26,791 nucleotides of DNA from an uncultured Gemmatimonadaceae bacterium (GTDB taxonomy: Bacteria > Gemmatimonadota > Gemmatimonadetes > Longimicrobiales > Gaopeijiaceae). The translations under genes were made by a program, and so were the position numbers. Each line of letters starts with the position of its first letter. Positions within the stretch are counted from its first letter, which is position 1. A model generated the notes under the pieces. The model was not told the origin of the DNA and did no database searches. It worked only from the letters and a program-made list of their open reading frames with translations. The stretch lies in assembly GCA_964567985.1 (NCBI GenBank), contig CAZMPV010000001.1:1-26791 (forward strand), given 5' to 3'. Below, piece after piece: positions 8,304-26,597 of this stretch.

Positions 8304-9629
8304 TCATCCGTCCCCCCGGACCGCGCTGAAGACCCGGGGATCGAACGCCTCTTCCAGGCCCTCCATCTGCCGGGCCAGGGCACGCCGGCGGACCTCCAGC
8401 TCCTCTCGTCGGTGCCGGGCGTCGGCGGCCTCCTGGCGGGCCCCGGCCAGGGCCTCTTCGGCGTCGTCCAGCTCGCTTTCCAGGGTGGAGGGGTCGAGGC
8501 CGGCCAGCTCGGTCAGGTCGTCCACCACGTCGTGGAAGCGGAGAAAGAAGCGCCAGACCTCGTCGGGCAGGGCCAGCTCCCAGCGCTCCAGCGCCTCGGG
8601 GTGTCCGGCGGTGTCGAAGTTGTCGAGTGCGACGGCCAGGGGTCCGTCATCGGCTTCCGCTTCCGCCAGGTCGTCCTCCTTCTGGGCCACGTCGAAGTCC
8701 TGGTCGGGATCGGCCAGGGAGTTCAGCCGGGCCTCGATCAGCGCGAAGCGCAGGTTCTCGACGTCGATGCGGGCCTCGGTGATCGCGATCTCCAGCTCCG
8801 CGGCGGTCTCCCCGTCCCCGGCGAGAGAGGAGAGCTCGTCGGCCTCGCCCGTGCCGATCTCCGGCATTCCAGCCTCCAGGAGGTCCCGGGCTCGGGCCAG
8901 GCGGTCGCCGGCGCCGCTCACGTAGGCCCGGAGCTCCGACCGCTTCCGCTGGTAGGCGGTCTCCTCTCCGGCGGCGGGATCGTCGCCCAGGGTATCGAGG
9001 GCGTCCCGGGCCGCATCGGCAAGCTTCCTGGCGTTGGACCTCCGAACCACCTCCAGCTCCCGGCGCTTCAGCGCCGCCTGGCGCAGCTTTTCCGGGATCC
9101 CGTCCTCCACCTCGGTGGTGAGATCGGAGAGGGCGCTCCCCGTGAGGAGGTCGGCGGCGTCGGCCTCGAGCGTGTCCAGCGGCGGCTGGCTCAGGAGGAG
9201 GCTCCAGCGGTCGTGGAGATCCGACTCCTCCTCGGCCCACTCCTCCAACTCCTCGGCCTCCTCCAGGCCGCGCTCGGCGGTGGAGAGGCGCGCCGACGCC
9301 GCCTCCATGGCCGAGGCCGCGTCCCGCTCCTCCGCCCGGCTTTCGTGGACCCCGGCCATGGCTTCCCGGGCCCGCATGAGGGCGTCGACCAGGTCGTCCA
9401 CCAGGTCCTCGGCGTCGCCGGGCGTGTCAGCCGCGGCCAGCCGCTCCCGGAGCGACTCGGTGTCGCTCCGGGCCTCGGAGAGCTCCTCGGCGTGGGTCCG
9501 CAGCGTCTCCCGGGCGGCGGTCCGCTCGTCGCGGGCCGAAGCCAGCGCCTGCTCCGCCTGGTCCGCCAGGTTCTGGTAGTGGCTCCGCTCGCCGGTGGCG
9601 AATTCCAGGAGCGTGGTCGGCAGAGGCAT
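8304..9629 (-). CDS. Acidic, all-helical coiled-coil protein of unknown function, 441 aa
   Basis: ATG at 9627-9629 with strong AGGGAGGAG RBS; co-oriented and in operon spacing. Ala/Glu/Leu/Arg/Asp-rich with heptad-like patterns (e.g. [44 protein letters not shown]). Confidence 0.8.
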
Positions 9630-9656
9630 GGCTCCTCCCTGATCTCTCGCTGCGTG

Positions 9657-11674
<2,018 letters not shown>

Positions 11675-11682
<8 letters not shown>

Positions 11683-13286: not shown

Positions 13287-15539
13287 TCAGCCCACCTCGC
13301 TGTCCCGACCGAGGCGTGCGTCTCCCACCCGGGTCGCGGGGCCGGGGCGGCCCAGGACGTCGCCGCCCCCGACCACCGACGAGTCGAGGCGCAGGGTGCC
13401 GAAGCCGCCCGTGGGTCCGACGAAGGTGCTCAGGCCCACGTGGAGCCCCCGGCCCACCCGCATCCCCTGGTCGGCGGTGCAGACATCCCAGACGGTGTGG
13501 GCCGGACGGTGGACCTCGACGATCCGGTCCACCACCTGCCGCTCCACGTCGCCCAGGGAGCGGCCCAGGAGGACCGTGAAGCGGTGGGCGTGGGTCCGGA
13601 AGGCGTCGGCGGTGGTCCCGGAGAGGGGCTCGGGGGTCTCGCTCCCCACCTCGCCCCCCACCCGGAAGCCGGCGCCCAGCACCGAGCGGGTGAAGGCCGG
13701 CGAAGACTCTCCCACGAGCTCGCCGCCCAGGCTCCGCAGCCGGAAGTGCTCCACCACGACCACCGGCTCGCCGGCGTAGATCTCCACGAAGCGGCGCACG
13801 CCGGGTACCGTTCCCCGGTGACGGAAGAGCCACGGCGCCTCGTCGATGGCCGTCCTGCGCACCTCCTCGGGCCACCGCTCGTCCAGAACCAGGCCCAGGA
13901 ACGACGCCAGCCACGGAAGGGCCTCCTCCGGCGCGCCTCGGGGATGCAGGAGCGCGTGACGCTCTCTCGCCGCGCCCTCCAGCTCCGTGAGGGTGCCGTC
14001 GACCATGGAGAGGTAGCGTCGGAGGAAGGAGGCGGCCTGCCGGTCGCGGGAGAAGACACGGGGCAGCCGCTCCAGGAGCCCGTGGCCGGGATGATGGGCC
14101 CGGACCGTGCGCACCAGAGGGGTGTGCCGGGTGTTCCCCGTCAGCTCCACGAAGACCCAGAGGAACCGCCCCGCCTCGTCGCTCACCGGGGCCTCGAGGA
14201 TGCGGAAGCGATCGTCGTCCGGGCGCGGCGACCAGGGAAGCTCGGTTCCGGCGCTCCGGCGATGGAGCGGTCCGAAGCCCTCCGGGTCGGCCGGAAGGAG
14301 GGAGGCCGGCGGCATGGGTGGCGACTCCCCCGAGAGCTCCGGGGGCGCGGACGGCCCCGCCGGGGCGGTCCGGGGGATCCGCGGCCCCTCCCCCTCCTCG
14401 TCGGCCGTGACCGTGGCGATCCGGATCGTGCAACCGTCGGGGACGCACGCCTCCATGTAGAGGCGACCCCAACGGGTCCCGTACGTCCCGCTGTCCAACC
14501 GGAAGCTCGTGACCCGGCCCCGGCGCGCGTACCGGACCCGGGCTGCCACCCCGTGGGCCGGCCCGGCGGGGGTCCAGAAGAGAATGCGGCCGTCCGGCAC
14601 GCGCACGATACCCCGGCCGTCGTAGGCCCGGGCTCGAAGGGGCCGCTCCGCCACCGGCACCGTACCGTCGAAGGCGAAGCGGAGGAAGTCCTGGTCGGCC
14701 CGCCGTGCCACCACCAGACGTCCCTGGCCGTCGAACGCCACGTCCGAGGCGCCCGGGACGTCGATCCCCCGCGCCACCCGGAGCCGCCGGCCCCCGCCGG
14801 GCTCCACGTCGGGATCGGGCTCGAGGAGGAGGACCCGGGCGTCATCGGTCGAGCCCCGATCCAGGAGGGCCAGTCGCCCCCGGGGCCCCACCGCCAGCCG
14901 GGTCGGGGCCTCTGGGGCGGGAGCGTCCGGACCTTCGCCGCGCACGGGGACCTCGCGCACGAGCTCCCAGGCGGTGAGCTCCACGAGCGCGCCGGCGTCG
15001 GACGTGACGGCCAGGACCCGGTCGCCCTCCGACGCCAGGTCCAGGGGACGGGCGCCGGCCAGGGAAACCTCGCGGAGGAGGCGGCGGTCCCGGAGGTCGT
15101 AGACCAGGACCCGCCCGCCCCCCCGCTCGGCCACGAAGAGCCGCCCCCCGGCGTCCACGGCCAGCCCCCGGGGGTCCCGGAGCGGCCCCCGGTCGGGGTC
15201 CGCCGGCCGGAAGCCGCCGGCCCCGCCGTCGTCGGGCCCTCGGAAAATGGGCAGCGTCTCCGGCTCGTCGACCCCCACCGGGCCCACGCCCCGCTCGGGC
15301 GACCAGGGCGCCGTCCGGACCACCTCCCCCCTCCCGGGCAGCGACCGGTAGACCCGGCACGCGGCGTCCAGGGCGAGCCCGGCCACCGGGCCCGCCGCCG
15401 CGGACCCGGCTCCGTCCCCGGGCTCCGGGTCGGTCCACGAGAGGCCCACGACGCCCCGGGCGTCCAGGTGCGTCCCGTCGTGGGCGCAGCGGAGCCACTG
15501 GTCCCGGGATCCCAGCAGGGCGAAGGAGCGGACGGCCAT
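13287..15539 (-). CDS. Baseplate wedge protein with C-terminal phage tail protein I (P2 gpI / Afp12-like) domain and N-terminal NHL-type beta-propeller, 750 aa
   Basis: C-terminal LLERLPRVF...FLRRYL...P...PEEALPWLASFLG...W....RR.AI..A..LFRHRGT..G is the tail-I signature. The N-terminus has NHL-like repeats such as LRDPRGLAVDAGGRLFVAERGGGRVLVYD. Follows baseplate J. Confidence 0.8.
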   Translation of the reverse strand: MAVRSFALLGSRDQWLRCAHDGTHLDARGVVGLSWTDPEPGDGAGSAAAGPVAGLALDAACRVYRSLPGRGEVVRTAPWSPERGVGPVGVDEPETLPIFRGPDDGGAGGFRPADPDRGPLRDPRGLAVDAGGRLFVAERGGGRVLVYDLRDRRLLREVSLAGARPLDLASEGDRVLAVTSDAGALVELTAWELVREVPVRGEGPDAPAPEAPTRLAVGPRGRLALLDRGSTDDARVLLLEPDPDVEPGGGRRLRVARGIDVPGASDVAFDGQGRLVVARRADQDFLRFAFDGTVPVAERPLRARAYDGRGIVRVPDGRILFWTPAGPAHGVAARVRYARRGRVTSFRLDSGTYGTRWGRLYMEACVPDGCTIRIATVTADEEGEGPRIPRTAPAGPSAPPELSGESPPMPPASLLPADPEGFGPLHRRSAGTELPWSPRPDDDRFRILEAPVSDEAGRFLWVFVELTGNTRHTPLVRTVRAHHPGHGLLERLPRVFSRDRQAASFLRRYLSMVDGTLTELEGAARERHALLHPRGAPEEALPWLASFLGLVLDERWPEEVRRTAIDEAPWLFRHRGTVPGVRRFVEIYAGEPVVVVEHFRLRSLGGELVGESSPAFTRSVLGAGFRVGGEVGSETPEPLSGTTADAFRTHAHRFTVLLGRSLGDVERQVVDRIVEVHRPAHTVWDVCTADQGMRVGRGLHVGLSTFVGPTGGFGTLRLDSSVVGGGDVLGRPGPATRVGDARLGRDSEVG

Positions 15540-15542
15540 GGC

Positions 15543-17741
15543 TCAGCACTCCGGTCGGAAGACCGGGAGGGGAACAGGGACGGGACGCCCGTCCTCGTCC
15601 GGGTCTGGATGCCGAGGCGGAGCCGGCTCCACGCCCTCTCCGGGCGGGAGCGGGTCCCCCTCCACAACCGAGACGTCCACGACGTGCGGGACCTCCCACG
15701 CTTCCATCTCCACGGTGGAGGTCTCGCTCCAGCCCCCGCCCTCCTCTCCGTCGTCGTCCCAGCGGGCCAGCCTCACGTCCCCCTCCAGGTACGCCACGCC
15801 CTCGACCTGGAGCGCCGCGGCCTCCAGCTCGGCGGCCCGGACGGTCCGCCCCAGGGGCCAGCCGTCCCCCTCGGGGCCGTACGGCGGCACCGGGGCCAGG
15901 TACTGGCGAAGCACCTTCTCCACCCAGCGCCGCACGGCCTCCAGCCCGTGGTCGGGCTTGGCCCGCACCCCCACCGAGACGGCGATCTCCCGGTACGAGG
16001 GCGGGATGACCCAGACCTCGGTGGTCAGCAGGCGCCGCGTGTCCAACCACTCGCAGACGCTCCGGATCACGCCCCGGGTGGGCCGGGGGGCATCCGGGCT
16101 GCAGGGATCCTTCCGGGGCCAGACCACGACGCTCACCACGCCCGCGGCCTCCTCCTCCCTGGTGGGCGGATGGAAGAGGGGGAGGCTCTCGGCGCGGACC
16201 AGGTCGGCGCCGGGGGTCTCCAGTGCCAGCTCCCGGAAGTCGCCCGGGGTCACGGCCCGGTCCCGGCGGCGGAGCTCGCCGGGAATCCGCTCCAGCGCGT
16301 CTTCCAGGGGCTCGTCGTCGGCGCCCCCGGTGGTGGGCAGCGGGTTGGTCACGTCCAGGTCCGGGTGGCCCGGCATCCGGTCCAGCCCCTCGGCCGGCAC
16401 GTTGCCCTCGACGCCGCCCCCGTACCGGTAGCTCCGGGCCCGGATCCGCTCGCCGATCTGGGGCGGCCGACCCCGCGCGCCGTCGCCGAAGCGAACCCGG
16501 CCCGCCTCTCGGTCCAGGAGGTAGTGGCGGTCGTCGCGCCGGCTTCCGTGGAGGCTCTCGACCGCGGTCCACTCCACCCAGCGATCGCCCTCCTCCACCT
16601 CCACCGTGAGGGAGCCCGCCAGCACAGGCGCGTTCACCAGCGAATAGGTTTGTCCGGGTTGTCCGGTCCCCGTGCCCAGGAACTCGGGCCGGGCCGTCCG
16701 GGCCTGCTCCACCTCCGAGGCGTTGACCCCCACCCAGCGCACGCGTCCCAGGGAACGGTCGTCCCGGCGGCCCGCCCGCAGCCAGAAGAGAACGCGCTCC
16801 TCCTCGTCCGGGTCTTCCAGGACCGGCGGGAAGTCGTCGGTGCCGGCGAGCTCCGGGTCGTCCTGGTCCACGGGCGCCAGGACGGTGAAGTCCTCCGGAA
16901 GCTGGAGGCGCACCACGCCCTCCCGGGTGAGCCCCCGGGTCGTGTCGCCGACGACCTGGAGGCTCCGGTATCGGGGCTGGCCGTCGTCGTCCAGCCCCGC
17001 CGTGCCCTGCCAGACCACCGTGGGCCCCGGATCTCCTTCCCCGGGACCGGGACAGGCCAGGACCCGGGAGAGCTCCGGGACCTCGGCCGCCGGCGAGAAG
17101 CCCACGTTCAGGACCTTCCCGCCCAGTGCGTCGGGGTCGGTGTGGCGCGTCCGCTGAATCGCCAGCCAGAGTCGACCGTCCACGGCCCGCCCGAAGTTCA
17201 CGGGCTCGGCGTCGGGTGCCGCGGGCTCCGCGGGCACCCGGACGTTTCGGTAGAAGGCGGGGACCTCGTCGTCGGCGTAGCCCCCCCGGGCGATGCGCAC
17301 CGCGTCGGCGTAGTCCTCCTCCTCGGGGCTCTCCGGATCCCGGCTCATGCTCCGGGCCAGGCAGATCGACGCCACCGGGAGGGCGTGCACCTCGACCCGG
17401 GTCTCGAAGGAGACGTCGCCGGCCCGGGCTTCGCTCCCCTTCTCCACCAGCGACCCGTCGGCCCGACGGGTCTCCAGCCGGACCATCCCCCGGGCCGGAG
17501 AGCCCGGCCGCAGGGGCACGTCCAGGAGCTGGAGGAAGGCGATCCGCGTGGCCTCGGGAATCTGGTTGAAGCGGAAGAGGAGGTTCTCGCCCAGGAAGGC
17601 GAAGAGCTCCAGGAGGGCGACCCCCGGGTCGCTGGCGTTGTGGTCCGTCCACTCGGGCGTATAGACCGGGATCCGGCGCAGGAGCTCCTCCCGGATCTCC
17701 TCGAAGGACCGGTCGTCCAGGATCGGCGTCGGCAGGGGCAT
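15543..17741 (-). CDS. Baseplate J-like assembly protein (Afp11-like), 732 aa
   Basis: MPLPTPILDDRSFEEIREELLRRIPVYTPEWTDHNASDPGVALLELFAFLGE...FRFNQIPE start; FGDG.RG..P; Y..GGG..GNV; TGGADDE; RAVT..DF; VRRWVE..L..YL.P. All are canonical motifs of this family. Confidence 0.93.
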   Translation of the reverse strand: MPLPTPILDDRSFEEIREELLRRIPVYTPEWTDHNASDPGVALLELFAFLGENLLFRFNQIPEATRIAFLQLLDVPLRPGSPARGMVRLETRRADGSLVEKGSEARAGDVSFETRVEVHALPVASICLARSMSRDPESPEEEDYADAVRIARGGYADDEVPAFYRNVRVPAEPAAPDAEPVNFGRAVDGRLWLAIQRTRHTDPDALGGKVLNVGFSPAAEVPELSRVLACPGPGEGDPGPTVVWQGTAGLDDDGQPRYRSLQVVGDTTRGLTREGVVRLQLPEDFTVLAPVDQDDPELAGTDDFPPVLEDPDEEERVLFWLRAGRRDDRSLGRVRWVGVNASEVEQARTARPEFLGTGTGQPGQTYSLVNAPVLAGSLTVEVEEGDRWVEWTAVESLHGSRRDDRHYLLDREAGRVRFGDGARGRPPQIGERIRARSYRYGGGVEGNVPAEGLDRMPGHPDLDVTNPLPTTGGADDEPLEDALERIPGELRRRDRAVTPGDFRELALETPGADLVRAESLPLFHPPTREEEAAGVVSVVVWPRKDPCSPDAPRPTRGVIRSVCEWLDTRRLLTTEVWVIPPSYREIAVSVGVRAKPDHGLEAVRRWVEKVLRQYLAPVPPYGPEGDGWPLGRTVRAAELEAAALQVEGVAYLEGDVRLARWDDDGEEGGGWSETSTVEMEAWEVPHVVDVSVVEGDPLPPGEGVEPAPPRHPDPDEDGRPVPVPLPVFRPEC

Positions 17742-17748
17742 CTCCGGG

Positions 17749-18135
17749 CTACTCCAGGTAGAAGGGGTAGACCAGGTTCTCGGAGCTCCGCGTCCGGAGC
17801 ACCACGTACTCGATGCGGATGAGGACCAGCGCCGGATCGTCGCCGGCCTCGGCGCTCACCGCCTTCACCTCGATGCGGGGCTCCCACCGCTCCAGGGCCC
17901 GCTCTACGTCGCGACGGATCAGTGCCCGGGTGGCCACCGTGTTGGGCTTCATCAGGTATCGTCGGAGGCCGCACCCGAACCGGGGGCGCATGACCCGCTC
18001 CCCGGGCTCGGTCTCCAGGATCAGGTGGATCGACCGCGCCACGGCGTCGACGCCCTCGGCCACGGGTAGGCGTCCCCGGGGGCCCGGCTTCAGCGGGAAG
18101 CCCCAGCCCCGGCCCAGATACTCGGCGGTGCTCAC
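17749..18135 (-). CDS. gp25/GPW-like baseplate wedge protein (Afp9-like), 128 aa
   Basis: This is the C-terminal part of the 17749..18885 ORF. True start is GTG at 18133-18135, overlapping the upstream TGA (GTGA). Motifs YLGRGWGFP, SIHLILETEPGERVMRPRFGC, ALERWEPRIEV and NLVYPFYLE are canonical gp25. Confidence 0.92.
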   Translation of the reverse strand: MSTAEYLGRGWGFPLKPGPRGRLPVAEGVDAVARSIHLILETEPGERVMRPRFGCGLRRYLMKPNTVATRALIRRDVERALERWEPRIEVKAVSAEAGDDPALVLIRIEYVVLRTRSSENLVYPFYLE

Positions 18136-19814
18136 AGGACCGTCCCCACGATCTCGGGCGCGTCGACCTGCGGTCGCTCGTCCACCCGTTCCTCCAGGAC
18201 GAGATTGTCGACCACCGGGCTCCGAGCCGGCGCCCCGCCGTCCGGGCCGTCGACCCCGTCGCCACCGTCCTCGGCGTCCTCCGGGAGCTCGGCGAGCTTC
18301 CTCAGGACTTCCCACATCTCCTCGTTGCTGTGTTCCGCGACCATCCGGGTCCCGAGCCCGTCTCCGTTCCGGTCCTTCCGCGTGGCCTTGTTCAGCTCGG
18401 TCACAAGGGTGGTTTGAACGCCGAAGTCCCCGTTCAGCGTCCCGTCGGCCAGCTTCGTCCGCACCTCGCCCACGAAGGAAGCGTCCAGGGAGATCGACGG
18501 CGGGATGCAGATCCGCATCACCAGGAGGAAGAAGAGCTGGAAGACGAAGACCACCACCGGTAGGAAGAGGCTGAAGACGAAGCGGGCCACGATGGTGATC
18601 AGCGGGATCGGGAAGGTGCAGATCTGGAACCCTTCCCGGCTCCCGTCCGCCGGCTCCGTCCCCTTGGCCTCGAAGCCGAGATTCGAGCCGTCGGGGCTCA
18701 CCATCCGGAGCCCCCCGGCCGGCCCGCTGTGGGCAGCGAGCTGGTCCAGGTCCGGCATCTCCACCGTGACGAGGACGTTCTTCTGCCCGTCCAGGTCGCC
18801 GTGGGACGCGATGCGGTACGGCTCGCTGGCCCGGCTCCACTCCAAGGGTCCCGGACAGTCGTTCCGCTCCCGGCGCCGGGGGCACCGCGCGTCGTGGCGG
18901 CGCACGAAGACCCGGATCCGGTAGAGGTGACGGGCGTCGAAGCGGGGAGATCCGTCGGAGCCGATGTCCGGAGTCTCGGTGGGAACCAGGCCGAAGAGGA
19001 GCCGTGCGCCCCGGGCCGGATCCTCCGACCGGTCCGGCCCGGGCACCAGCGGGTGCAGGGGATGAATCTGCTCACGGAGCTCCCCGGGCTCGTGCAACAC
19101 CGGCACCCAGCGGCCGTGTCCCTCGTGATCCGGGTCGGGGATCCATCCCTGCAGACGGCCGGTATCCGTCGTCGCGTCGAGCCCGGCGGCGGGCGTTCCG
19201 GCGTGCCCGACCGCCGCGCCTTTCCCGGAGACCGCAGCCTGGACGGGCTCGCCCGACGCCCCTCCCGGGCACGGGTAGGCGCTGCCGCCCGCGGCCGGCG
19301 TGGGCCTCCCCCCGACTTCCCCGGCGCCCACCCCCGCCGGCCTCGCTTCCTCCACGGCCACGGCCCCGTCCACAACCCCTGTGGCCGCCGGCGCGCCCTC
19401 ACCCGGCGGCGCCCACCGCCGGATCACGAAGCCCATCTCGCAGGCGTGGTCCAGGCCGGCGTCGGGGAGGCCGGGGGCGTCGCAGTGCAGGGAGCAGACG
19501 ATCAGGTAGTGACGCTTGTGGGTGGGGCGGAAGAGCTTCCTCACCGCGACCCCTGCCCACCCCGAGGAGGGCCCTCCCCACGCGATCCTGGCCCCGTCGT
19601 CGTACACGGACCGCTCGGTGGCCGCCACGAAGTCCTCGCCGGCCTGGAAGCGGTACGACGCCTGAGGATCTTCCAGGAACCGGTTCACCAGGCCCGGGTC
19701 CGCGTACTTCTGGAAGACCGGACGGCCCTGGCGGGGCAGGACGCCGTCTTCCTCGGCCTGGCGTTGCCAGCGGTACCACGGCGCCACGAGTCGGAGCTTC
19801 GGAGTCGCGGTCAT
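18132..19814 (-). CDS. Uncharacterised eCIS protein, 560 aa, with a ~40-aa hydrophobic segment (candidate membrane anchor or translocator)
   Basis: ATG 4 nt after the spike stop; its stop overlaps the gp25 start. Hydrophobic run ICTFPIPLITIVARFVFSLFLPVVVFVFQLFFLLVMRICIPP at 18498-18626. Function not recognised. Confidence 0.78.
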   Translation of the reverse strand: MTATPKLRLVAPWYRWQRQAEEDGVLPRQGRPVFQKYADPGLVNRFLEDPQASYRFQAGEDFVAATERSVYDDGARIAWGGPSSGWAGVAVRKLFRPTHKRHYLIVCSLHCDAPGLPDAGLDHACEMGFVIRRWAPPGEGAPAATGVVDGAVAVEEARPAGVGAGEVGGRPTPAAGGSAYPCPGGASGEPVQAAVSGKGAAVGHAGTPAAGLDATTDTGRLQGWIPDPDHEGHGRWVPVLHEPGELREQIHPLHPLVPGPDRSEDPARGARLLFGLVPTETPDIGSDGSPRFDARHLYRIRVFVRRHDARCPRRRERNDCPGPLEWSRASEPYRIASHGDLDGQKNVLVTVEMPDLDQLAAHSGPAGGLRMVSPDGSNLGFEAKGTEPADGSREGFQICTFPIPLITIVARFVFSLFLPVVVFVFQLFFLLVMRICIPPSISLDASFVGEVRTKLADGTLNGDFGVQTTLVTELNKATRKDRNGDGLGTRMVAEHSNEEMWEVLRKLAELPEDAEDGGDGVDGPDGGAPARSPVVDNLVLEERVDERPQVDAPEIVGTVL

Positions 19815-19818
19815 CGGC

Positions 19819-20481
19819 TCACCAGATGTTGCCGGCGCCCGGCGTGTACGACGGCGAGACGACCCCGGCGCTGGCGATCAGCGTCGTGCACTGGATCATC
19901 CCGTCGAAGATCGCGGTGGGGGCGTGGACGTTGAGGGCCGACGCCGTGACCTCCACGGTGGAGGTAGCCTGGACGTCGATCCGCCCTCCGGCGTCCATGG
20001 TGATGGAGGGACCCATGGAGTGCCGGAGGCGGATCTCCGCCGACCCCTCGTCCAGGACCAGCTCGTGTCCGGCCGGGGTGGTCAGGGTGATCTTCGTCGC
20101 CCCCTCCGTGTCGTCGAACTCCAGCAGGCTCCCGGAGCGGGTCTTCAGCACCCGCTTGTCGTTCGCCTCGTCGGGGGGCTCGGGCATCGCCTCCCGGCCG
20201 TTCCACGCGGCCCCCACGATGTAGGGGCGCCGCAGGTCCCCGGCCTCGAAGCCCACCACCACCTGGGTATCCACAGAGGGAAGGGCCTCGAAGCCCTGGT
20301 CGTCCTCGGCGTAGGGGCTCAGGAGCGTGGCCCACGCCCGCACGCTCTCGCCCTCCTCGCCGAGCCAGGGAAAGCGGACCTCCACCCGCCCCAGCTCCTC
20401 CGGGTCGGTGAGCCGGGTCACGATGGCGGGGTAGAGTCCGTACAGCCCCGGTCGAGAGCGTCCCTCGCATCCGCATCCCAT
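19819..20481 (-). CDS. Phage baseplate assembly protein V / gp5-like spike (VgrG C-terminal half), 220 aa
   Basis: OB-fold motifs GLYPAIVT...DPEELGRVEVRFPWL, WATL..P.A....G...LP.V...VVVGFEAGDLRRPYIVGA.WNG, followed by beta-helix KRVLKTRSGSLLEFDD. TGATG coupling with the upstream gene at 20479-20483. Confidence 0.92.
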   Translation of the reverse strand: MGCGCEGRSRPGLYGLYPAIVTRLTDPEELGRVEVRFPWLGEEGESVRAWATLLSPYAEDDQGFEALPSVDTQVVVGFEAGDLRRPYIVGAAWNGREAMPEPPDEANDKRVLKTRSGSLLEFDDTEGATKITLTTPAGHELVLDEGSAEIRLRHSMGPSITMDAGGRIDVQATSTVEVTASALNVHAPTAIFDGMIQCTTLIASAGVVSPSYTPGAGNIW

Positions 20482-21566
20482 CAGATCCGTCCTCCCAGGT
20501 CCGGCCGCTCGGCCTCGAACCGGGTGCGATGCCCCGACTCCAGGTCGTAGGTGTGCATGACATCGGTGACGTAGTAGGCCCCACCCCCGAAGGGCGTACC
20601 CACTCCCTCCAGACGGAGGCGGCTCCCCACGTCCATCTCCGGGGTGCCCCGGGTCGTCCCCGACGCGGTGACGAAGCGCCGTCCGCGCCGGAGCATCTCG
20701 GCCCGGGCCCAGTCGGCCGCCTCGGCGCCCCGGAGGGGGACCTCCCGGACCCGCTGGCTCGGCCGGTCGCCGAAGGCTCGGCTCAGGACCTCGGGCCCGG
20801 TGCTCCCTCCCGGGACCTCGGCCCGGAGGGCGTCGACCCCGGCGACCTCCCGGATCGACTCCCTCCCGGCGGCGTCATAGCCACACACGGCGAGCTCGGA
20901 GCGCTGGTGTGCCAGATCGGCCCGGAGGGTCACGCTCAGGAGGTCGGCGCCCTCCGCCAGCGTGATCTCCTCGCCTCTCCGCTCGTCCCGGCTCTCGAAG
21001 TGCAGCGTTCCCTCCTCCACCCAGAGGTCGGCCTGGAGGAGGGCGGCCCGTTCCCGGAGGAAGGCGAGGTCGCTGGTGTCGAGCTGCTGGACCAGGTCAT
21101 AGGTGGGACCCGGCGCGGTCACCTGGGCGCCCAGCCCGTGCTCGCCGGCGATCTCCGCCGCGATGTCGCCGTCGGTCATCTCCTGATAGCTCCGCATCCG
21201 CCGGGTCATGCGGAGCTGCATGAGCTCGTCCTCTGCGAAGACCACCACCTCCGGGGGCAGCGCCTCGGAGAAGTGCCCCTCGATGCCCGAGACCCTGCCC
21301 AGAAAGACGGTCCGGTCAGAGCCCGACGGGCCCAGAGAGACCCGGAGCTCGCTCCCGAAGCGGAGGATCTCGCCGTCCAGGTAGAGGAGGCTGTCCCGGT
21401 CCTCGCCCTCCCGGGGCCCCAGGGCCACCAGGCTCAGCTTCAGGGTCCGGAGCCCCCGGGTCGTGTGCCGCACCTCCAGGCGCAGCAGGTCCCGGATCAG
21501 CTCTCCCGTCCGTTCGCCGTCCACGGTGAAGACCGGCGCCGCGGAGTACAGCAGCGGATCAGCCAT
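20481..21566 (-). CDS. Phage late control D / gp27-like baseplate hub (VgrG N-terminal half, Afp8-like), 361 aa
   Basis: Motifs VFLGRVSGIEG.F, MTRRMRSY..MTD.DIA..IA.EHGL, Q...SDLAFLRERA, G.T.GTP...VG..LRL.GVG..F.G.YYV..V.H.YD...G.RT.F.A.RP. Confidence 0.9.
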   Translation of the reverse strand: MADPLLYSAAPVFTVDGERTGELIRDLLRLEVRHTTRGLRTLKLSLVALGPREGEDRDSLLYLDGEILRFGSELRVSLGPSGSDRTVFLGRVSGIEGHFSEALPPEVVVFAEDELMQLRMTRRMRSYQEMTDGDIAAEIAGEHGLGAQVTAPGPTYDLVQQLDTSDLAFLRERAALLQADLWVEEGTLHFESRDERRGEEITLAEGADLLSVTLRADLAHQRSELAVCGYDAAGRESIREVAGVDALRAEVPGGSTGPEVLSRAFGDRPSQRVREVPLRGAEAADWARAEMLRRGRRFVTASGTTRGTPEMDVGSRLRLEGVGTPFGGGAYYVTDVMHTYDLESGHRTRFEAERPDLGGRI

Positions 21567-23545: not shown

Positions 23546-26110
23546 CTATGTCTCCGCCCGGACCGATCCGTCCGGGTCCCGGGCGAGGCGCAGGACCAGG
23601 AACTCGGCTGGCTCGGCCGGAGCCACGCCCACCTCGGCCAGGAGCCGGCCCGCGTCCACGACGCGGGGCGGGTTCAGCGTCTCGTCGCAGCGCACGAAGA
23701 AGGCGTCCTCCTCGGTGGCGGGAGCGAAGGCGTTGGCCCGGTGGAGCCCCCGGAGAAACTCGGTCAGGAGGCGAGTCAGCTGCCCCCGGAGCGCCCGGCC
23801 GTTGGGCTCGAACGCGGTCCACGCCATCTGCCGCTCCAGAACCCGGGCGATCATGGTCATGAGCCGACGCACGCTGAGCTGCCGGTAGGACGGGTCCCGG
23901 GAGAGGGTCCGGGCCCCGGTGAGCCGGACGCCGTCGGGATCGCGCCGAAAGACGTTGATCCCCAGCGGGTGAAGCGCGTCATGGTGCCGGCCCGCCACCG
24001 TCTCCGAGAGGCGGACCACGTCCCGGGCCAGCGCGTTGGCGGGTCCGTGGGGCACCCCGTGCTCGTTCTCGACCCGGGCCACGATTCCCGCGGCCACCGC
24101 GGCGGGGTTCACCCGGATCGGCGTCGGCCGGCCGTCCTCGGAGACCGAGACCTCGGTCCAGGGGTGATAGGCCGCGGCGAAGGCCGTGCCGAAGCGGCCG
24201 CGCCAGCGGACGATCTCCTCCGGATCCAGCCCCGGGGGCACGTCGAGCAGGGCCACCAGCGAGCGCAGATCCGCGGCGAAGCCGGCGACGTCGCCCTGGA
24301 GCTCGACGATCCGCTCCAGGTCGGCGCCGTCGTCCGGATCGAGGCGGAGCCCGGCCAGCTCCGGCACGGGGTCCGCCTGCTCCACCGGCTCGCCGGGATG
24401 AACGCACGGGGCGAAGGCCGGCCCCGCCAGGGAGACGGGGTCGCTCACGTCCTCCACCGGCTGGAGGGGGCCCGGAGAGTAGAGGTCCGGCACCACCAGG
24501 AGCGCAGCCTCCGCCACGCTTCCCACGGCCTGGATCCCGTCGCCCGGCTCCTCGTCCCGCTGGCTCCACCCGGGGTCGAAGAAGTCCTCGGGGACGATGT
24601 CGGCGTAGCGGTCGGCGCCTCCCCGGAAGGGGCCCGACTCCAGCCGCTCCCGGTCCAGGAGCCCAGGGGTCACCTCCAGCGTCGCGCCGGCCCACTCGGG
24701 GTGGGCGCGCGCCAGCTCCGACTCCCGGCCCACCACGCCGTGGATCCAGCGGGGGTGGGCGGGGGTGAGCCCCAGCCCCTGAAAAACCTCGCTCCGCCCC
24801 TCCTGCACCGCCGCCTCCGCCCGGACCTCGTGGAGGCGGAGCTCCGCCTCCACCCGCTCCGTACGGACCGGGTCGCCGGCCGGGGCCGCGTCCAGGACCA
24901 GGCGCCGCACCCGATCCGGCCGGTCCGGGTGCCAGCCGTCCACCACGTCGATCACCGTCCGCACCTCCCGGGTGCCGTCGGAGAGGCGAAGCAGCAGGGT
25001 GGCGCCCAGGGGCACCGGGGCGCCGCCCGGGCGGACCAGGAGGTCGCCGCCGCGGAGCTCGGGGACCGCCACGGGCTCGGTCCGGAAGGAGAGCGACGCC
25101 CGCAGGCGGTCGCCCCACCGACCCTCGCTCCGGGCCTCCAGCCAGACCCCGTCGTCAAGCGGCCGGACACCGGGGGCCGCGCCCCGGGCCGGCCTCCCCG
25201 TGCCGCCGCCGCGGAAGGGATCCCCCTGGGGCGGATCGACCAGGGAGGGAGAGGCGGGGCGGAGCTCCCGCTGCGCCCAGCGGGGGTCCGCCCTCAGCAG
25301 GACCGACTCCGCCTCCAGGACGGCGGCCACCCAGCGGGGATGGGCGGGGGTCAGCCCCAGGTCGGCGTGCCTCTCCGACGACCCGCCTCCGTCGACGTCG
25401 AGGGTCATCCCGACCCGCTGGACGGCGGTGGGGTCGCCCTCCACCTCCGCGGCCGGCACCGCCACCCGCACCGGCGCGCCCGCCAGCTCGTCGTCCCGGG
25501 CGCTATCCACCCGATGGAAGCGGCTTCCGTTACCTGCCAGCTCGACCCGGAGGAGGTCGCCGATCCCCACCGTCGCCCCGTCGTCCAGGGCGAAGCCGCC
25601 CTCCAGCAGACCCCGGAAGCCCAGGTCCGCAGCGGTCCACGAGGTCCGGACCCGGATCCCGTTCCCGGCGTCCCCCGGCGAAGCGGCCCGAAGAGGGAGA
25701 CCCGTCCCGCCCCGGTGGAGCAGGCCCGAGAGGGGGGCCGACGCCCGTCCCTCCTCGTCCCGGACGTCGCCGTAGCCATGGACGATCCGCACCACGTGGG
25801 CCCGACGACCGCCCTGACGGAAGAAGGCGTGCACGGCGTAGGGCAGGAGGCCCGGACCCGAGAAGCCCCCGTAGAGTCGCACGTACTCGGTCCAGCTCTC
25901 CACGGACACCGCCAGAGAGCGGCGGACGCCCCGCTCCGAATAGGGCGACGCCGCCGGCCAGGGCGATTCCCGCACCGGCTCCCGCACCGGCCCCCGGGGC
26001 GCCACGCCCACGAAGGCGCACACGTCCATGCGCACGCCGGTCAGCCGGCGCAGCGGCCCGTCGGTCTCCCAGTAGACGCCCGGGGCGCCCAGGACGCGGG
26101 AGCCGATCAT
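23546..26110 (-). CDS. Phage tail sheath protein 2 (extended, internal duplication), 854 aa
   Basis: N-terminal APGVY, DVCAFVG...RGP, SW.EY...YG, PYAV.AFF..GGRRA.VVR. C-terminal ALLDVPP, AAAYHPW, A.AG..AR, PAN, L...GIN, GARTLS, VRRL, FEPN, AFFVRCDET.NP, GVAP..PAEF.V.R. Confidence 0.93.
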   Translation of the reverse strand: MIGSRVLGAPGVYWETDGPLRRLTGVRMDVCAFVGVAPRGPVREPVRESPWPAASPYSERGVRRSLAVSVESWTEYVRLYGGFSGPGLLPYAVHAFFRQGGRRAHVVRIVHGYGDVRDEEGRASAPLSGLLHRGGTGLPLRAASPGDAGNGIRVRTSWTAADLGFRGLLEGGFALDDGATVGIGDLLRVELAGNGSRFHRVDSARDDELAGAPVRVAVPAAEVEGDPTAVQRVGMTLDVDGGGSSERHADLGLTPAHPRWVAAVLEAESVLLRADPRWAQRELRPASPSLVDPPQGDPFRGGGTGRPARGAAPGVRPLDDGVWLEARSEGRWGDRLRASLSFRTEPVAVPELRGGDLLVRPGGAPVPLGATLLLRLSDGTREVRTVIDVVDGWHPDRPDRVRRLVLDAAPAGDPVRTERVEAELRLHEVRAEAAVQEGRSEVFQGLGLTPAHPRWIHGVVGRESELARAHPEWAGATLEVTPGLLDRERLESGPFRGGADRYADIVPEDFFDPGWSQRDEEPGDGIQAVGSVAEAALLVVPDLYSPGPLQPVEDVSDPVSLAGPAFAPCVHPGEPVEQADPVPELAGLRLDPDDGADLERIVELQGDVAGFAADLRSLVALLDVPPGLDPEEIVRWRGRFGTAFAAAYHPWTEVSVSEDGRPTPIRVNPAAVAAGIVARVENEHGVPHGPANALARDVVRLSETVAGRHHDALHPLGINVFRRDPDGVRLTGARTLSRDPSYRQLSVRRLMTMIARVLERQMAWTAFEPNGRALRGQLTRLLTEFLRGLHRANAFAPATEEDAFFVRCDETLNPPRVVDAGRLLAEVGVAPAEPAEFLVLRLARDPDGSVRAET

Positions 26111-26135
26111 CGGAGGACGGCCGGAGAGGCGGCGG

Positions 26136-26597
26136 TCACTGGTACTCGATCCCCTCGCAGGTGAAGATCAGCTCCTCCATCGCCACCTCGCCCCCGCCCT
26201 CGGCCGCCAGCGTGGGGCCGGTGTACTTCTTGGGCTGGGCGTCCCGAAGCTTGTAGGTGACGACGGGGTTGCGGGCCTCGTCCATCACGGTGATCAGGAC
26301 CTGCCTGGGATCGGCCGTCCCCTCCCGCACCCTCTTGAGCCATTCGAAGAGATCGGGGGAGCCCACCAGGCCCCGCTTGAGCGTCACGTCGTCCACCGAG
26401 TAGGTGTTGGGCACCTTGCGCACAGTGTTGAAGCGCTCGTTCCCGTTCCGGTACTCGGCGTAGCTCACCTCGGTGCCCAGGCCGCTCACGTCGGAGAAGC
26501 CCCCGACCACGGTCCCCTCGGCGCCGTCGCCCTGGTCGCCTCCCAGCGACACGAGAAAGTTGAACGCTCCATACGGGTTCTCTCTGAAGGTCGCCAT
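26136..26597 (-). CDS. Phage tail tube protein 1 (T4 gp19 family, Afp1/Afp5-like), 153 aa
   Basis: R.NPYGAFNFLV, GGFSDVSGL, EYRNG, K.P......VTLKRG, A.P.KYTGP.L.A.G.GEVAMEEL....EGI. ATG preceded by GGGAG. Confidence 0.95.
   Translation of the reverse strand: MATFRENPYGAFNFLVSLGGDQGDGAEGTVVGGFSDVSGLGTEVSYAEYRNGNERFNTVRKVPNTYSVDDVTLKRGLVGSPDLFEWLKRVREGTADPRQVLITVMDEARNPVVTYKLRDAQPKKYTGPTLAAEGGGEVAMEELIFTCEGIEYQ

What the first reader, a model, noticed from the sequence alone, without database searches (positions are those of the whole stretch)
18132..19814. Unknown 560-aa protein with a 40-residue hydrophobic segment sits in the PAAR slot between spike and gp25
Seen in sequence: the gene is coupled to the spike (4-nt gap) and gp25 (GTGA overlap). 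It contains QICTFPIPLITIVARFVFSLFLPVVVFVFQLFFLLVMRICIPP (aa 397-439, 18498-18626), long enough for a helical hairpin and bracketed by an Ile-Cys at each end. Other Cys/His clusters are HKRHYLIVCSLHCD and RCPRR...CP. There is no N-terminal signal peptide. Established: some CIS are membrane-tethered (thylakoid-anchored cyanobacterial CIS; membrane adaptor in Streptomyces CIS). Inference: this is either a membrane anchor making the system cell-associated, or a spike-loaded pore-forming/translocation protein.
Basis: partly seen in the sequence, partly recalled or inferred. Interest (0 to 1): 0.68.

Follow-up and report, generated by a model that had tools for sequence, protein, structure and literature searches.

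The report
Conserved membrane-helix protein beside injection-system spike
A phage-tail-like injection machine of a subtype that lacks the usual spike-sharpening PAAR protein always encodes, right after its spike gene, this 560-residue protein of unknown fold. Its best-conserved part is a membrane-grade greasy helix, so this whole class of machines probably engages a membrane through it; nobody has tested this.

Summary
Window 18132-19814 (-) is a real 560-aa gene (GC3 0.89). A 4-nt gap separates it from the gpV spike gene, and a GTGA overlap joins it to gp25. It carries one TM-grade hydrophobic stretch, aa 398-439, bracketed by near-invariant Cys399 and Cys436.

The locus is an eCIS of subtype IIb (Chen 2019), the only subtype without PAAR. 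The protein ("X") matches no Pfam, NCBIfam or PHROG family, no PDB sequence or fold, and no phage. It nevertheless defines a large family:
- 1330 representatives at 50% identity.
- In 83 loci from at least 10 phyla it sits next to gpV (82) and gp25 (80) wherever the contig reaches.
- The hydrophobic stretch is its most conserved part.
- It is the only greasy protein in the cluster.
- 22 of 30 carrier genomes have no PAAR_motif match; the eight with matches carry them elsewhere, and other PAAR-like families are rare.

Best reading (0.45): a spike-proximal core protein that ties the firing end of the machine to the producer's cytoplasmic membrane. Main rival (0.30): a particle-borne tip or cage protein that inserts into the target membrane. 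The tools here cannot separate them.

This scan has met the same family at least seven times on other DNA, with similar readings. I found no paper that characterises it.

The parts
18132..19814 (-). Gene X: 560-aa uncharacterised core protein of eCIS subtype IIb (P0001)
   Evidence: ORF and translation; coding frame by GC3; 348+ homologues at 90% clustering and 1330 representatives at 50%; no Pfam, NCBIfam or PHROG match
18780..19814 (-). N-terminal domain, aa 1-345: beta-sandwich core modelled with high confidence, interrupted by a variable insertion
   Evidence: AlphaFold2 pLDDT 90-98 for aa 1-60, 90-140 and 220-345; only generic Ig/FN3-like matches, Z up to 6.5; no Foldseek match in PDB or BFVD
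19158..19394 (-). Variable insertion, aa 141-219: Gly/Ala/Pro-rich and disordered here; an unrelated variable segment in the aligned relatives
   Evidence: pLDDT 37-50; alignment columns 190-300; mean conservation 0.30; in frame, not a frameshift
19440..19520 (-). Conserved His/Cys motif 1, aa 99-125 (H99, R101, Y103, H110, C111, D112, C125)
   Evidence: Invariant or at least 90% conserved columns in 26- and 86-sequence alignments
18849..18902 (-). Conserved His/Cys motif 2, aa 305-322 (R305, H307, C311, C320, G322)
   Evidence: Invariant columns
18498..18623 (-). Hydrophobic element, aa 398-439: Cys399, Pro404, helix, Pro419, break at Gly/Gln426, short Trp/Phe/Lys-rich helix, Cys436, Pro438-Pro439
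   Evidence: KD19 maximum 2.68; mean column conservation 0.81 against 0.58-0.71 for the N-domain; column statistics over 240 sequences; AF2 helices 403-424 and 428-434, pLDDT 89-92 for aa 405-424 when the C-terminal module is modelled alone
18288..18482 (-). Four short amphipathic helices, aa 445-509, after the hydrophobic element; part of a strongly acidic tail
   Evidence: AF2 pLDDT 81-94; only generic helical-bundle matches, Z below 5; tails after the segment have median length 111 aa and mean net charge -11.4
18135..18209 (-). C-terminal peptide, aa 536-560, with a conserved Leu-x-x-Glu-x-Arg-Val-type motif; possible docking peptide
   Evidence: Conserved at the end of the alignments, L538 at least 90%
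19819..20481 (-). Spike gene (gpV/gp5-like OB fold plus beta-helix, 220 aa) with a conserved 35-residue C-terminal extension; 4-nt gap to X
   Evidence: PF04717 E 2e-23; aligns to VgrG, Afp8, Pvc8 and Cis8 C-terminal halves up to query residue about 181-185; C-terminal 40 aa highly conserved, ending at the same Trp in 53 of 54; junction
20481..21566 (-). Hub gene (gp27/GPD-like, 361 aa): the other half of a split VgrG
   Evidence: PF05954 E 3.4e-10
17749..18135 (-). gp25-like sheath initiator (128 aa); its start overlaps the X stop codon (GTGA)
   Evidence: PF04965 E 3.6e-26; junction; the X stop to gp25 start distance is -4 or -1 in 35 of 79 loci measured and small in most others
13287..17741 (-). 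Baseplate wedge genes: Baseplate_J-like (732 aa) and Tail_P2_I-like with NHL repeat (750 aa)
   Evidence: PF04865 and PF09684; the same order in all loci that reach that far

Best explanation
X is a lineage-defining core component of eCIS subtype IIb. Its conserved N-terminal beta-sandwich domain most likely docks at the centre of the baseplate, beside the spike and gp25. Its near-invariant hydrophobic element inserts into a lipid bilayer.

The most likely arrangement is an anchor in the producer's own cytoplasmic membrane. The element would be either a tight helical hairpin with both ends cytoplasmic, or a single span with the acidic C-terminal tail outside. Several copies around the spike axis would hold the firing end of the machine against the membrane. 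Subtype IIb would then work in a cell-attached mode, like T6SS or the thylakoid-anchored CIS, rather than as a free particle.

Shown here: the gene is real; it is a fixed member of the spike/gp25 block; it is the only greasy protein of the cluster; its greasy part is its best-conserved part; and the lineage has no PAAR.

Inferred: docking at the baseplate centre, membrane insertion, oligomerisation, and which membrane is involved.
For: Subtype IIb assignment:
- Split gp27 and gp5 genes, a single Baseplate_J gene and no PAAR.
- This matches Chen et al. 2019 (PMC6899500). They report afp10 'solely absent from subtype IIb' and two or three subtype-specific genes without known domains.

Fixed position:
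- Across 83 loci from at least 10 phyla, gpV lies directly upstream in 82 and gp25 directly downstream in 80, i.e. wherever the contig reaches.
- Tight or overlapping junctions.

Membrane-grade segment:
- KD19 of 2.68, far above every other protein of the cluster, whose maximum is 1.72.
- No signal peptide.
- AF2 gives a 22-residue helix (aa 403-424) followed by a short Trp/Phe/Lys-rich helix, the look of a transmembrane helix plus interfacial helix.
- In the full-length monomer model its pLDDT (46-74) is lower than that of both flanking domains. It is therefore not confidently packed into a soluble core.

Cell-biology argument (own knowledge): a nascent internal segment this hydrophobic is expected to be targeted to the membrane unless shielded. 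T6SS effectors with transmembrane domains need Eag chaperones, and no DUF1795 or other known chaperone domain is in the cluster.

Precedent: conserved transmembrane proteins in CIS clusters have repeatedly turned out to be membrane tethers.
- Cis13 in Anabaena (PMC8894136).
- CisA in Streptomyces (PMC12237407).
- SalCis19.
- Hbor_38620 in haloarchaea (PMC11566945).

The tail after the segment is variable and strongly acidic, mean net charge -11.4. This fits an envelope-facing or easily translocated part.
Against: - No experiment and no multimer model: the position in the machine, the stoichiometry and the topology are all inferred.
- Plain membrane anchors are usually poorly conserved. Here 27 of 42 positions are at least 90% identical across phyla. 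This points to protein-protein packing or a two-state element rather than mere anchoring.
- Known CIS tethers are encoded at the edge of their clusters, not between spike and gp25.
- The cluster otherwise looks like a released eCIS: a Pvc16-type cap in relatives, an AAA+ ATPase, a DUF4157 effector and large distal proteins.
- Charged residues do not give a clear positive-inside signal. Lys/Arg sit at 432 and 434 on the C-terminal side, and a polar or charged residue sits at 415 inside the predicted helix.
- A distance-matrix co-evolution test gave no special link to spike or gp25: partial r of 0.01 and -0.17, against 0.39 for the ATPase. This is a weak method.
Confidence: 0.45

Rival explanations
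1. X is carried on the particle at the spike, either as a trimer on the blunt end of the gpV beta-helix or as a cage around it. It would take over the tip role that PAAR has elsewhere. Its greasy helices are shielded in an oligomeric bundle until firing. They then insert into the target membrane, easing penetration or forming a pore or translocation port.
For: - IIb is the only eCIS subtype without PAAR. 22 of 30 carrier genomes have no PAAR_motif match anywhere, and PAAR-like families are found in only 1 and 3 of 31.
- The spike is homologous to the PAAR-capped ends of VgrG, Afp8, Pvc8 and Cis8.
- X follows the spike gene with a 4-nt gap.
- Near-invariance of the hydrophobic element on all faces, with paired invariant Cys399 and Cys436 and fixed prolines. 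This fits a two-state insertion element, as in Cys-flanked internal fusion loops of viral glycoproteins (own knowledge), better than a passive anchor.
- Conserved His/Cys positions recall the metal sites of spike tips (own knowledge).
- Precedent for membrane-active parts riding on CIS: transmembrane-domain PAAR effectors such as Tse6 (own knowledge); tape-measure proteins with predicted transmembrane helices in diffocin and S. davawensis.
- The cluster has released-eCIS features.
Against: - No PAAR motif or cone fold: the N-domain is an Ig-like sandwich.
- About 160 residues per chain beyond the helix would blunt rather than sharpen a tip.
- No chaperone gene is recognised that could keep such a segment out of the producer's membrane.
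- The spike's own conserved 35-residue C-terminal extension may already be the tip.
- No pore-forming-domain fold was found.
- No co-evolution signal with the spike (weak method).
Confidence: 0.3
2. The hydrophobic element never meets a membrane. It is the buried oligomerisation core of a purely structural baseplate or spike-cage protein, for example a three- or six-fold helical bundle on the machine's axis.
For: - Extreme conservation on all helical faces is what a tightly packed protein interface gives.
- The module modelled alone gets pLDDT 89-92 for the long helix.
- Spike cages exist in AlgoCIS and SalCIS.
Against: - A KD19 of 2.68 over more than 30 residues, rich in Phe, Ile, Leu and Val with fixed prolines, is unusual for a soluble core.
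- Fold-search matches to the C-terminal module cover the four amphipathic helices and leave the hydrophobic helix out.
- pLDDT is lower than both flanks in the full-length model.
Confidence: 0.15
3. X is the missing tape-measure-like or lumen protein of lineage II systems. It would be ejected on firing and form a channel, as proposed for diffocin and siphophage tape-measure proteins.
For: [quoted passage not shown]
- Tape-measure proteins often carry hydrophobic segments.
Against: - X has a roughly 270-residue globular beta-sandwich rather than a long helical rod.
- Its length is narrowly fixed at about 500-620 aa.
- A fast-evolving 441-aa protein further down the operon, with weak coiled-coil-type NCBIfam matches, is a better tape-measure candidate.
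Confidence: 0.05

Closest known systems
'Subtype-specific conserved genes' of eCIS subtype IIb (Chen et al. 2019, Cell Rep 29:511, PMC6899500)
   Same: The locus has the IIb hallmarks: afp8 split into gp27- and gp5-type ORFs, a single afp11, no afp10/PAAR, and extra conserved genes without known domains. X is almost certainly one of those unnamed genes.
   Different: That paper gives no sequence features, position-specific analysis or function for these genes. The hydrophobic element and its conservation are not described there. My searches of the held library found no experimental study of subtype IIb.
PAAR-repeat spike tips (Afp10, Pvc10, Cis10, T4 gp5.4, T6SS PAAR)
   Same: Encoded in the spike/gp25 block. 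X-carrying loci hold no PAAR gene, and most carrier genomes have none anywhere. Conserved His/Cys positions.
   Different: No PAAR_motif, DUF4280 or Tox-PAAR-like match. X is 560 aa rather than about 100. The model is an Ig-like sandwich plus helices, not a beta cone. X carries a transmembrane-grade segment.
CIS membrane tethers: Cis13 of Anabaena tCIS, CisA of Streptomyces, SalCis19, Hbor_38620 (PMC8894136, PMC12237407, 10.1101/2025.06.01.657177, PMC11566945)
   Same: A conserved protein with a transmembrane segment encoded in a CIS cluster, which in those systems correlates with, or causes, membrane attachment.
   Different: Unrelated architectures:
- CisA has a disordered N-terminus, one transmembrane segment and a periplasmic binding-protein-like domain.
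- Cis13 is a fibre-like trimer.
- SalCis19 has a Sec signal, three transmembrane helices and a hydrolase domain.
- Hbor_38620 has six transmembrane helices.
Those whose position the papers state lie off the spike block: Hbor_38620 upstream of the core cluster, Cis13 as the tail-fibre gene. X sits between spike and gp25, and its membrane segment is far more conserved than an anchor needs.
T6SS membrane-complex protein TssL, and PAAR effectors with transmembrane domains such as Tse6 (own knowledge)
   Same: TssL has a cytoplasmic domain plus a C-terminal membrane helix linking a contractile machine to the inner membrane. Tse6-type effectors have transmembrane helices riding on the spike tip and inserting into the target membrane.
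   Different: No DotU/TssL, PAAR or DUF1795 (Eag chaperone) match in X or in the cluster. The resemblance is functional only.

Membership tests
eCIS subtype IIb (locus level; Chen et al. 2019) | afp8 split into separate gp27-type and gp5-type ORFs | tested here: met
   PF05954 on window 20484-21566 and PF04717 on 19822-20481; criterion quoted
eCIS subtype IIb (locus level; Chen et al. 2019) | No afp10/PAAR gene | tested here: met
   No PAAR-type Pfam hit in any of 16 cluster proteins. No PF05488, PF14107 or PF13665 match in the whole MAG, which is 78.8% complete.
eCIS subtype IIb (locus level; Chen et al. 2019) | Single afp11 (Baseplate_J) gene, plus tube, sheath, gp25 and AAA+ core genes | tested here: met
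   The ATPase gene is frame-shifted in this assembly.
PAAR-repeat proteins | Match to PAAR_motif (PF05488) or the PAAR-like families DUF4280 and Tox-PAAR-like | tested here: not met
   hmmscan of X against Pfam-A: no family at E <= 0.01
PAAR-repeat proteins | Small conical beta fold with pseudo-threefold symmetry | tested here: not met
   The AF2 model is an Ig-like sandwich plus helices. No PAAR chain appears among Foldseek or VIA-align matches.
PAAR-repeat proteins | Binds the blunt end of the spike beta-helix | not testable with these tools
   Needs a multimer prediction or a structure; only single chains could be modelled
Integral membrane protein (generic) | At least one stretch of about 19 or more residues with transmembrane-grade hydrophobicity, predicted helical | tested here: met
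   KD19 2.68, window centres 405-436 above 1.6; helices 403-424 and 428-434
Integral membrane protein (generic) | Demonstrated membrane insertion and topology | not testable with these tools
   Needs fractionation or PhoA-LacZ reporters. Charge flanks are ambiguous.
CisA-type membrane adaptor (Streptomyces) | Disordered cytoplasmic N-terminus, one transmembrane segment, periplasmic substrate-binding-like C-terminal domain | tested here: not met
   X has an ordered beta-sandwich N-domain and a small acidic helical tail, compared with the description in PMC12237407. No sequence comparison was made.
Colicin/Bcl-2-type pore-forming domain | Hydrophobic helical hairpin enclosed by 6-8 amphipathic helices, recognisable by fold | tested here: not met
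   The C-terminal module (aa 385-560) modelled alone has no match with Z >= 5 or Foldseek E < 1. Matches cover only the four amphipathic helices. Helical folds are easily missed, so this is weak.
TMD-bearing PAAR effector (Tse6-like) | PAAR domain with flanking transmembrane helices and a cognate Eag (DUF1795) chaperone gene | tested here: not met
   No PAAR or DUF1795 hit in X or in the 15 other cluster proteins

The most novel reading that the evidence does not exclude
X oligomerises around the spike axis into a single-protein membrane port. That port would replace both the PAAR tip and a T6SS-style membrane complex. Subtype IIb, found in at least 10 phyla of both monoderm and diderm bacteria, would then be a distinct, so far unrecognised mode of contractile injection, in which the spike is pre-inserted in or fires through a dedicated greasy ring.
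Probability: 0.25. Interest if true: 0.85.

Novelty: new variant of a known kind. Interest (0 to 1): 0.6.

Why it matters
How a contractile injection system meets a membrane decides its biology: a free particle, a cell-anchored gun or an intracellular suicide device. Subtype IIb is widespread. Carriers include Acidobacteriota, Gemmatimonadota, Verrucomicrobiota, Planctomycetota, Chloroflexota, Actinomycetota, Myxococcota, Pseudomonadota and others. It is the only eCIS subtype without PAAR, and I found no experimental study of it.

A single, easily recognised core protein with an almost invariant membrane-grade helix gives a direct handle for experiments: tag it, delete it, determine its topology, image a cultivable carrier. 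It would also give a marker for annotating this subtype. If it is particle-borne, it is a possible new membrane-penetration part.

Tried and rejected
- Frameshift artefact in the low-complexity middle of X: rejected. Relatives align in one frame only.
- Known domain: none in Pfam, NCBIfam or PHROGs.
- Solved relative: none by profile search of PDB sequences.
- Fold match: none by Foldseek against PDB or BFVD. Only generic beta-sandwich or helical-bundle hits by VIA-align. Atlas hits are all 'hypothetical protein'.
- Phage homologue: none.
- Domain fusions that could reveal a partner: none among the 150 best representatives, lengths 292-662 aa.
- PAAR hidden elsewhere in the locus: not found.
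- Mirror-tree co-evolution with 11 other cluster proteins over 53 loci: no specific partner. Results are confounded by rate classes.
- Helical periodicity of polarity in the segment: only marginal. p = 0.02 for aa 404-418 and 0.08 overall, so the 'polar stripe / pore-lining' idea was not pursued.
- Apex-domain homology of the spike's C-terminal 80 residues: no PDB sequence match.
- Model coordinates are not exposed. I could not check Cys/His proximity or whether the helix is buried in the model.
Full report
**1. The observation**

The window is 74% G+C, so long open frames are common and the frame had to be checked.
- For the minus-strand ORF 18132-19814, third-position GC is 0.83-0.97 throughout and second-position GC is low. 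This is the signature of the true frame.
- It translates to 560 residues.
- tblastn with five close relatives aligns one frame over the full length. The Gly/Ala/Pro-rich middle (aa 141-219) is therefore genuine and not a pair of frameshifts.

- The upstream gene ends TGG TGA, followed by gccg and then ATG.
- The X stop TGA overlaps the GTG start of the next gene.

The hydrophobic stretch is at the stated coordinates.
- Its Kyte-Doolittle 19-residue mean peaks at 2.68.
- It is the only stretch above 1.6 in this protein and the only strongly hydrophobic stretch in any of the 16 proteins of the cluster.
- Over these codons second-position GC drops to 0.33-0.38 while third-position GC stays at 0.92-0.95. 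The AT-rich codons are kept by selection on the amino acids.
- There is no N-terminal hydrophobic region.

**2. The surroundings**

All genes are on the minus strand. In order they are:
- gp19-type tube
- sheath
- tube
- CIS_tube (Afp7-like)
- a 67-aa ORF
- Phage_GPD hub
- Phage_base_V spike
- X
- gp25
- Baseplate_J
- Tail_P2_I with an NHL repeat
- a 536-aa unknown
- the AAA+ ATPase region
- a 441-aa protein with weak coiled-coil-type NCBIfam matches
- a 485-aa protein
- a 1450-aa protein
- a DUF4157 (eCIS_core) plus transglutaminase-like protein

The spike aligns to the C-terminal halves of VgrG, Afp8, Pvc8 and Anabaena Cis8, so VgrG is split here into hub and spike genes.

A split afp8, a single afp11 and no afp10 are the features Chen et al. 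give for eCIS subtype IIb. [quoted passage not shown] My searches of the held library found no experimental work on IIb.

**3. The family**

X matches nothing in Pfam, NCBIfam or PHROGs, no PDB sequence even by profile search, and no phage genome. It is nevertheless far from an orphan.
- More than 348 clusters at 90% identity.
- 1330 representatives at 50% identity with E <= 1e-3, of which 261 have E <= 1e-30.
- Full-length members run about 450-660 aa, and no fusion partner appears among the 150 best representatives.

In one genome per species, 167 stretches encode a relative. The 80 kept come from Acidobacteriota, Gemmatimonadota, Verrucomicrobiota, Planctomycetota, Chloroflexota, Actinomycetota, Myxococcota, Gamma- and Betaproteobacteria, Desulfobulbus and a Heliomicrobium MAG.

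Within the window's own phylum it is patchy: 3 of 301 genomes. This fits a mobile accessory island.

**4. Synteny and PAAR**

- In 83 loci, gpV lies directly upstream in 82 and gp25 directly downstream in 80. These are all cases where the contig reaches that far. The rest of the module is in the same order.
- The distance from the X stop to the gp25 start is -4 or -1 in 35 of 79 loci measured and small in most others.
- No locus contains a PAAR gene.
- 22 of 30 carrier genomes have no PAAR_motif match anywhere.
- DUF4280 and Tox-PAAR-like occur in 1 and 3 of 31 genomes.
- The window's own MAG (78.8% complete) has none of the three families.

One caveat. The IIb spike has about 35 residues beyond the point where Afp8 ends. 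This extension is among the best-conserved parts of the spike and ends at the same Trp in 53 of 54 sequences. It has no PDB sequence match. It could be a built-in tip, which would make PAAR unnecessary without any help from X. It could equally be the docking site for X.

**5. Anatomy of X**

AlphaFold2 with an 86-sequence alignment gives mean pLDDT 76.7 and pTM 0.70.
- aa 1-345: a confidently modelled beta-sandwich-based domain, interrupted by the variable insertion 141-219. Structural matches are only generic Ig/FN3/macroglobulin-type sandwiches, Z up to 6.5. Foldseek finds nothing in PDB or BFVD. The ESM Atlas returns only 'hypothetical protein' clusters.
- A linker follows.
- The hydrophobic element comes next.
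- Then four short amphipathic helices (aa 445-509), an acidic disordered stretch, and a conserved C-terminal peptide.

Modelled alone, the C-terminal module gives a 22-residue helix (aa 403-424; pLDDT 89-92 over aa 405-424), a break at Gly/Gln426, and a short helix at 428-434.

It has no significant fold match. The hits cover only the four amphipathic helices, so a colicin- or Bcl-2-like pore domain is not supported.

**6. Conservation**

Mean column conservation over 53 loci:

| Region | Mean column conservation |
|---|---|
| aa 398-439 | 0.81 |
| N-domain pieces | 0.58-0.71 |
| Insertion and tail | 0.30-0.44 |

Column counts over 240 sequences:

| Position | Count |
|---|---|
| Cys399 | 232 of 237 |
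| Cys436 | 230 of 240 |
| Pro404 | 220 |
| Pro419 | 226 |
| Pro438 | 207 |
| Pro439 | 222 |
| Ala410 | 238 |
| Phe412 | 236 |
| Leu427 | 232 |
| Leu431 | 234 |

- The variable or polar positions are 411, 415 (Lys/Asn/Arg/Ser), 426 (Gly/Gln/Asn), 432 and 434 (Lys/Arg).
- The layout is roughly symmetric about 415-419, with a Cys at each end, which suits a tight hairpin. AlphaFold instead draws one helix through Pro419. I cannot decide between them.
- Helical periodicity of polarity is marginal.
- Elsewhere H99, H110, C111, C125, H307, C311 and C320 are invariant or nearly so. This suggests a metal site or, outside the cell, disulfides.
- The tail after the segment has median length 111 aa and mean net charge -11.4.

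**7. Mechanism**

Three points are solid.
- X is a fixed core gene of a PAAR-less CIS subtype.
- It is the only greasy protein of the machine.
- Its greasy part is under the strongest constraint.

A membrane role is the natural reading.

For an anchor in the producer membrane:
- There is no signal peptide.
- The segment is hydrophobic enough to be membrane-targeted during synthesis.
- No recognisable chaperone is in the cluster.
- Conserved transmembrane proteins in CIS clusters have repeatedly turned out to be tethers.

For a particle-borne tip, cage or translocation element:
- PAAR is lost, and X is adjacent to the spike gene.
- Conservation is far beyond what an anchor needs, with paired Cys residues.
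- The cluster is otherwise eCIS-like, with a DUF4157 effector and, in relatives, a Pvc16-type cap.
- Membrane-active proteins are known to ride in or on contractile tails.

The mirror-tree test showed no preferential co-evolution with spike or gp25, but this method is weak.

My estimates:

| Reading | Probability |
|---|---|
| Anchor in the producer membrane | 0.45 |
| Particle-borne insertion device | 0.30 |
| Buried oligomerisation core | 0.15 |
| Tape-measure-like lumen protein | 0.05 |

**8. Comparison with known systems, and novelty**

- X is not a PAAR protein: motif and fold were tested and not met.
- It does not share architecture with CisA, Cis13, SalCis19 or Hbor_38620.
- It has no TssL or Eag-related domain.
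- The closest published description is the unnamed 'subtype-specific conserved genes' of IIb.
- The kind of thing, a CIS-associated membrane protein, is known. This family, its core position and its conserved element are undescribed in the literature I could search.
- I therefore class it as a new variant of a known kind.

**9. Earlier findings of this scan**

After my own analysis I looked up earlier notes. The same family has been flagged and followed up at least seven times on other genomes, with the same IIb assignment and a membrane-hairpin or anchor reading. These are AI notes and not independent evidence, but the finding is not new to this scan.

Notes on this same window include a frameshift in the ATPase gene. 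I confirmed it: homology to a relative's ATPase switches from frame -2 to -3 between about 10600 and 10451. Either the assembly has an error there or this copy of the machine is impaired. X itself is intact.

Noticed in passing
window 9430-11682 (-), break between about 10451 and 10600: The AAA+ ATPase gene is split between two frames. A relative's 667-aa ATPase aligns at aa 103-352 in frame -2 (11334-10600) and at aa 403-666 in frame -3 (10451-9660). The 751-aa ORF as read matches only a winged-helix domain in Pfam. This is either a frameshift or an assembly error in this MAG.
   Followed up: partly
window 19822-19935 (-), spike residues about 183-220: The IIb spike has a roughly 35-residue C-terminal extension beyond the end of Afp8/VgrG homology. 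It is highly conserved (one His, one Cys, an SPSYTPGAGN-like end), terminates at the same Trp in 53 of 54 loci, and has no PDB sequence match. It may be a built-in spike tip or the docking site for X.
   Followed up: partly
window 106-2328 (-): The last gene of the cluster encodes an eCIS_core (DUF4157) domain plus a weak transglutaminase-like (TGL) match. It is a likely cargo or effector.
   Followed up: no
window 2443-6792 (-) and 6798-8252 (-): A 1450-aa protein with a CarboxypepD_reg-like domain and a 485-aa protein follow the ATPase and the 441-aa gene. tblastn from this window finds them in only 2 and 27 of 83 related loci, so this distal part of the cluster varies or diverges fast.
   Followed up: no
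window 8307-9629 (-): A 441-aa protein with weak SMC/ZapB-type coiled-coil NCBIfam matches. A gene of 417-446 aa sits at the same position in the three loci whose gene calls I saw (L001-L003), yet tblastn finds sequence similarity in only 2 of 83 loci. It is a candidate tape-measure protein of this subtype.
   Followed up: no
window 23549-26167 (-): The second sheath gene is unusually long: 873 aa here and 856 aa in the Gemmatimonadales relative, against about 660 aa in other phyla. Pfam sheath domains match only the last roughly 240 residues.
   Followed up: no
window 13290-15539 (-): The Tail_P2_I-type wedge protein carries an N-terminal NHL repeat (possibly a beta-propeller). A faint NHL signal is also seen in relative L002.
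   Followed up: no
whole window / own genome: The X-type cluster is found in only 3 of 301 sampled genomes of the same phylum and in none of 47 from the same family. This fits horizontal spread of the whole island.
   Followed up: partly
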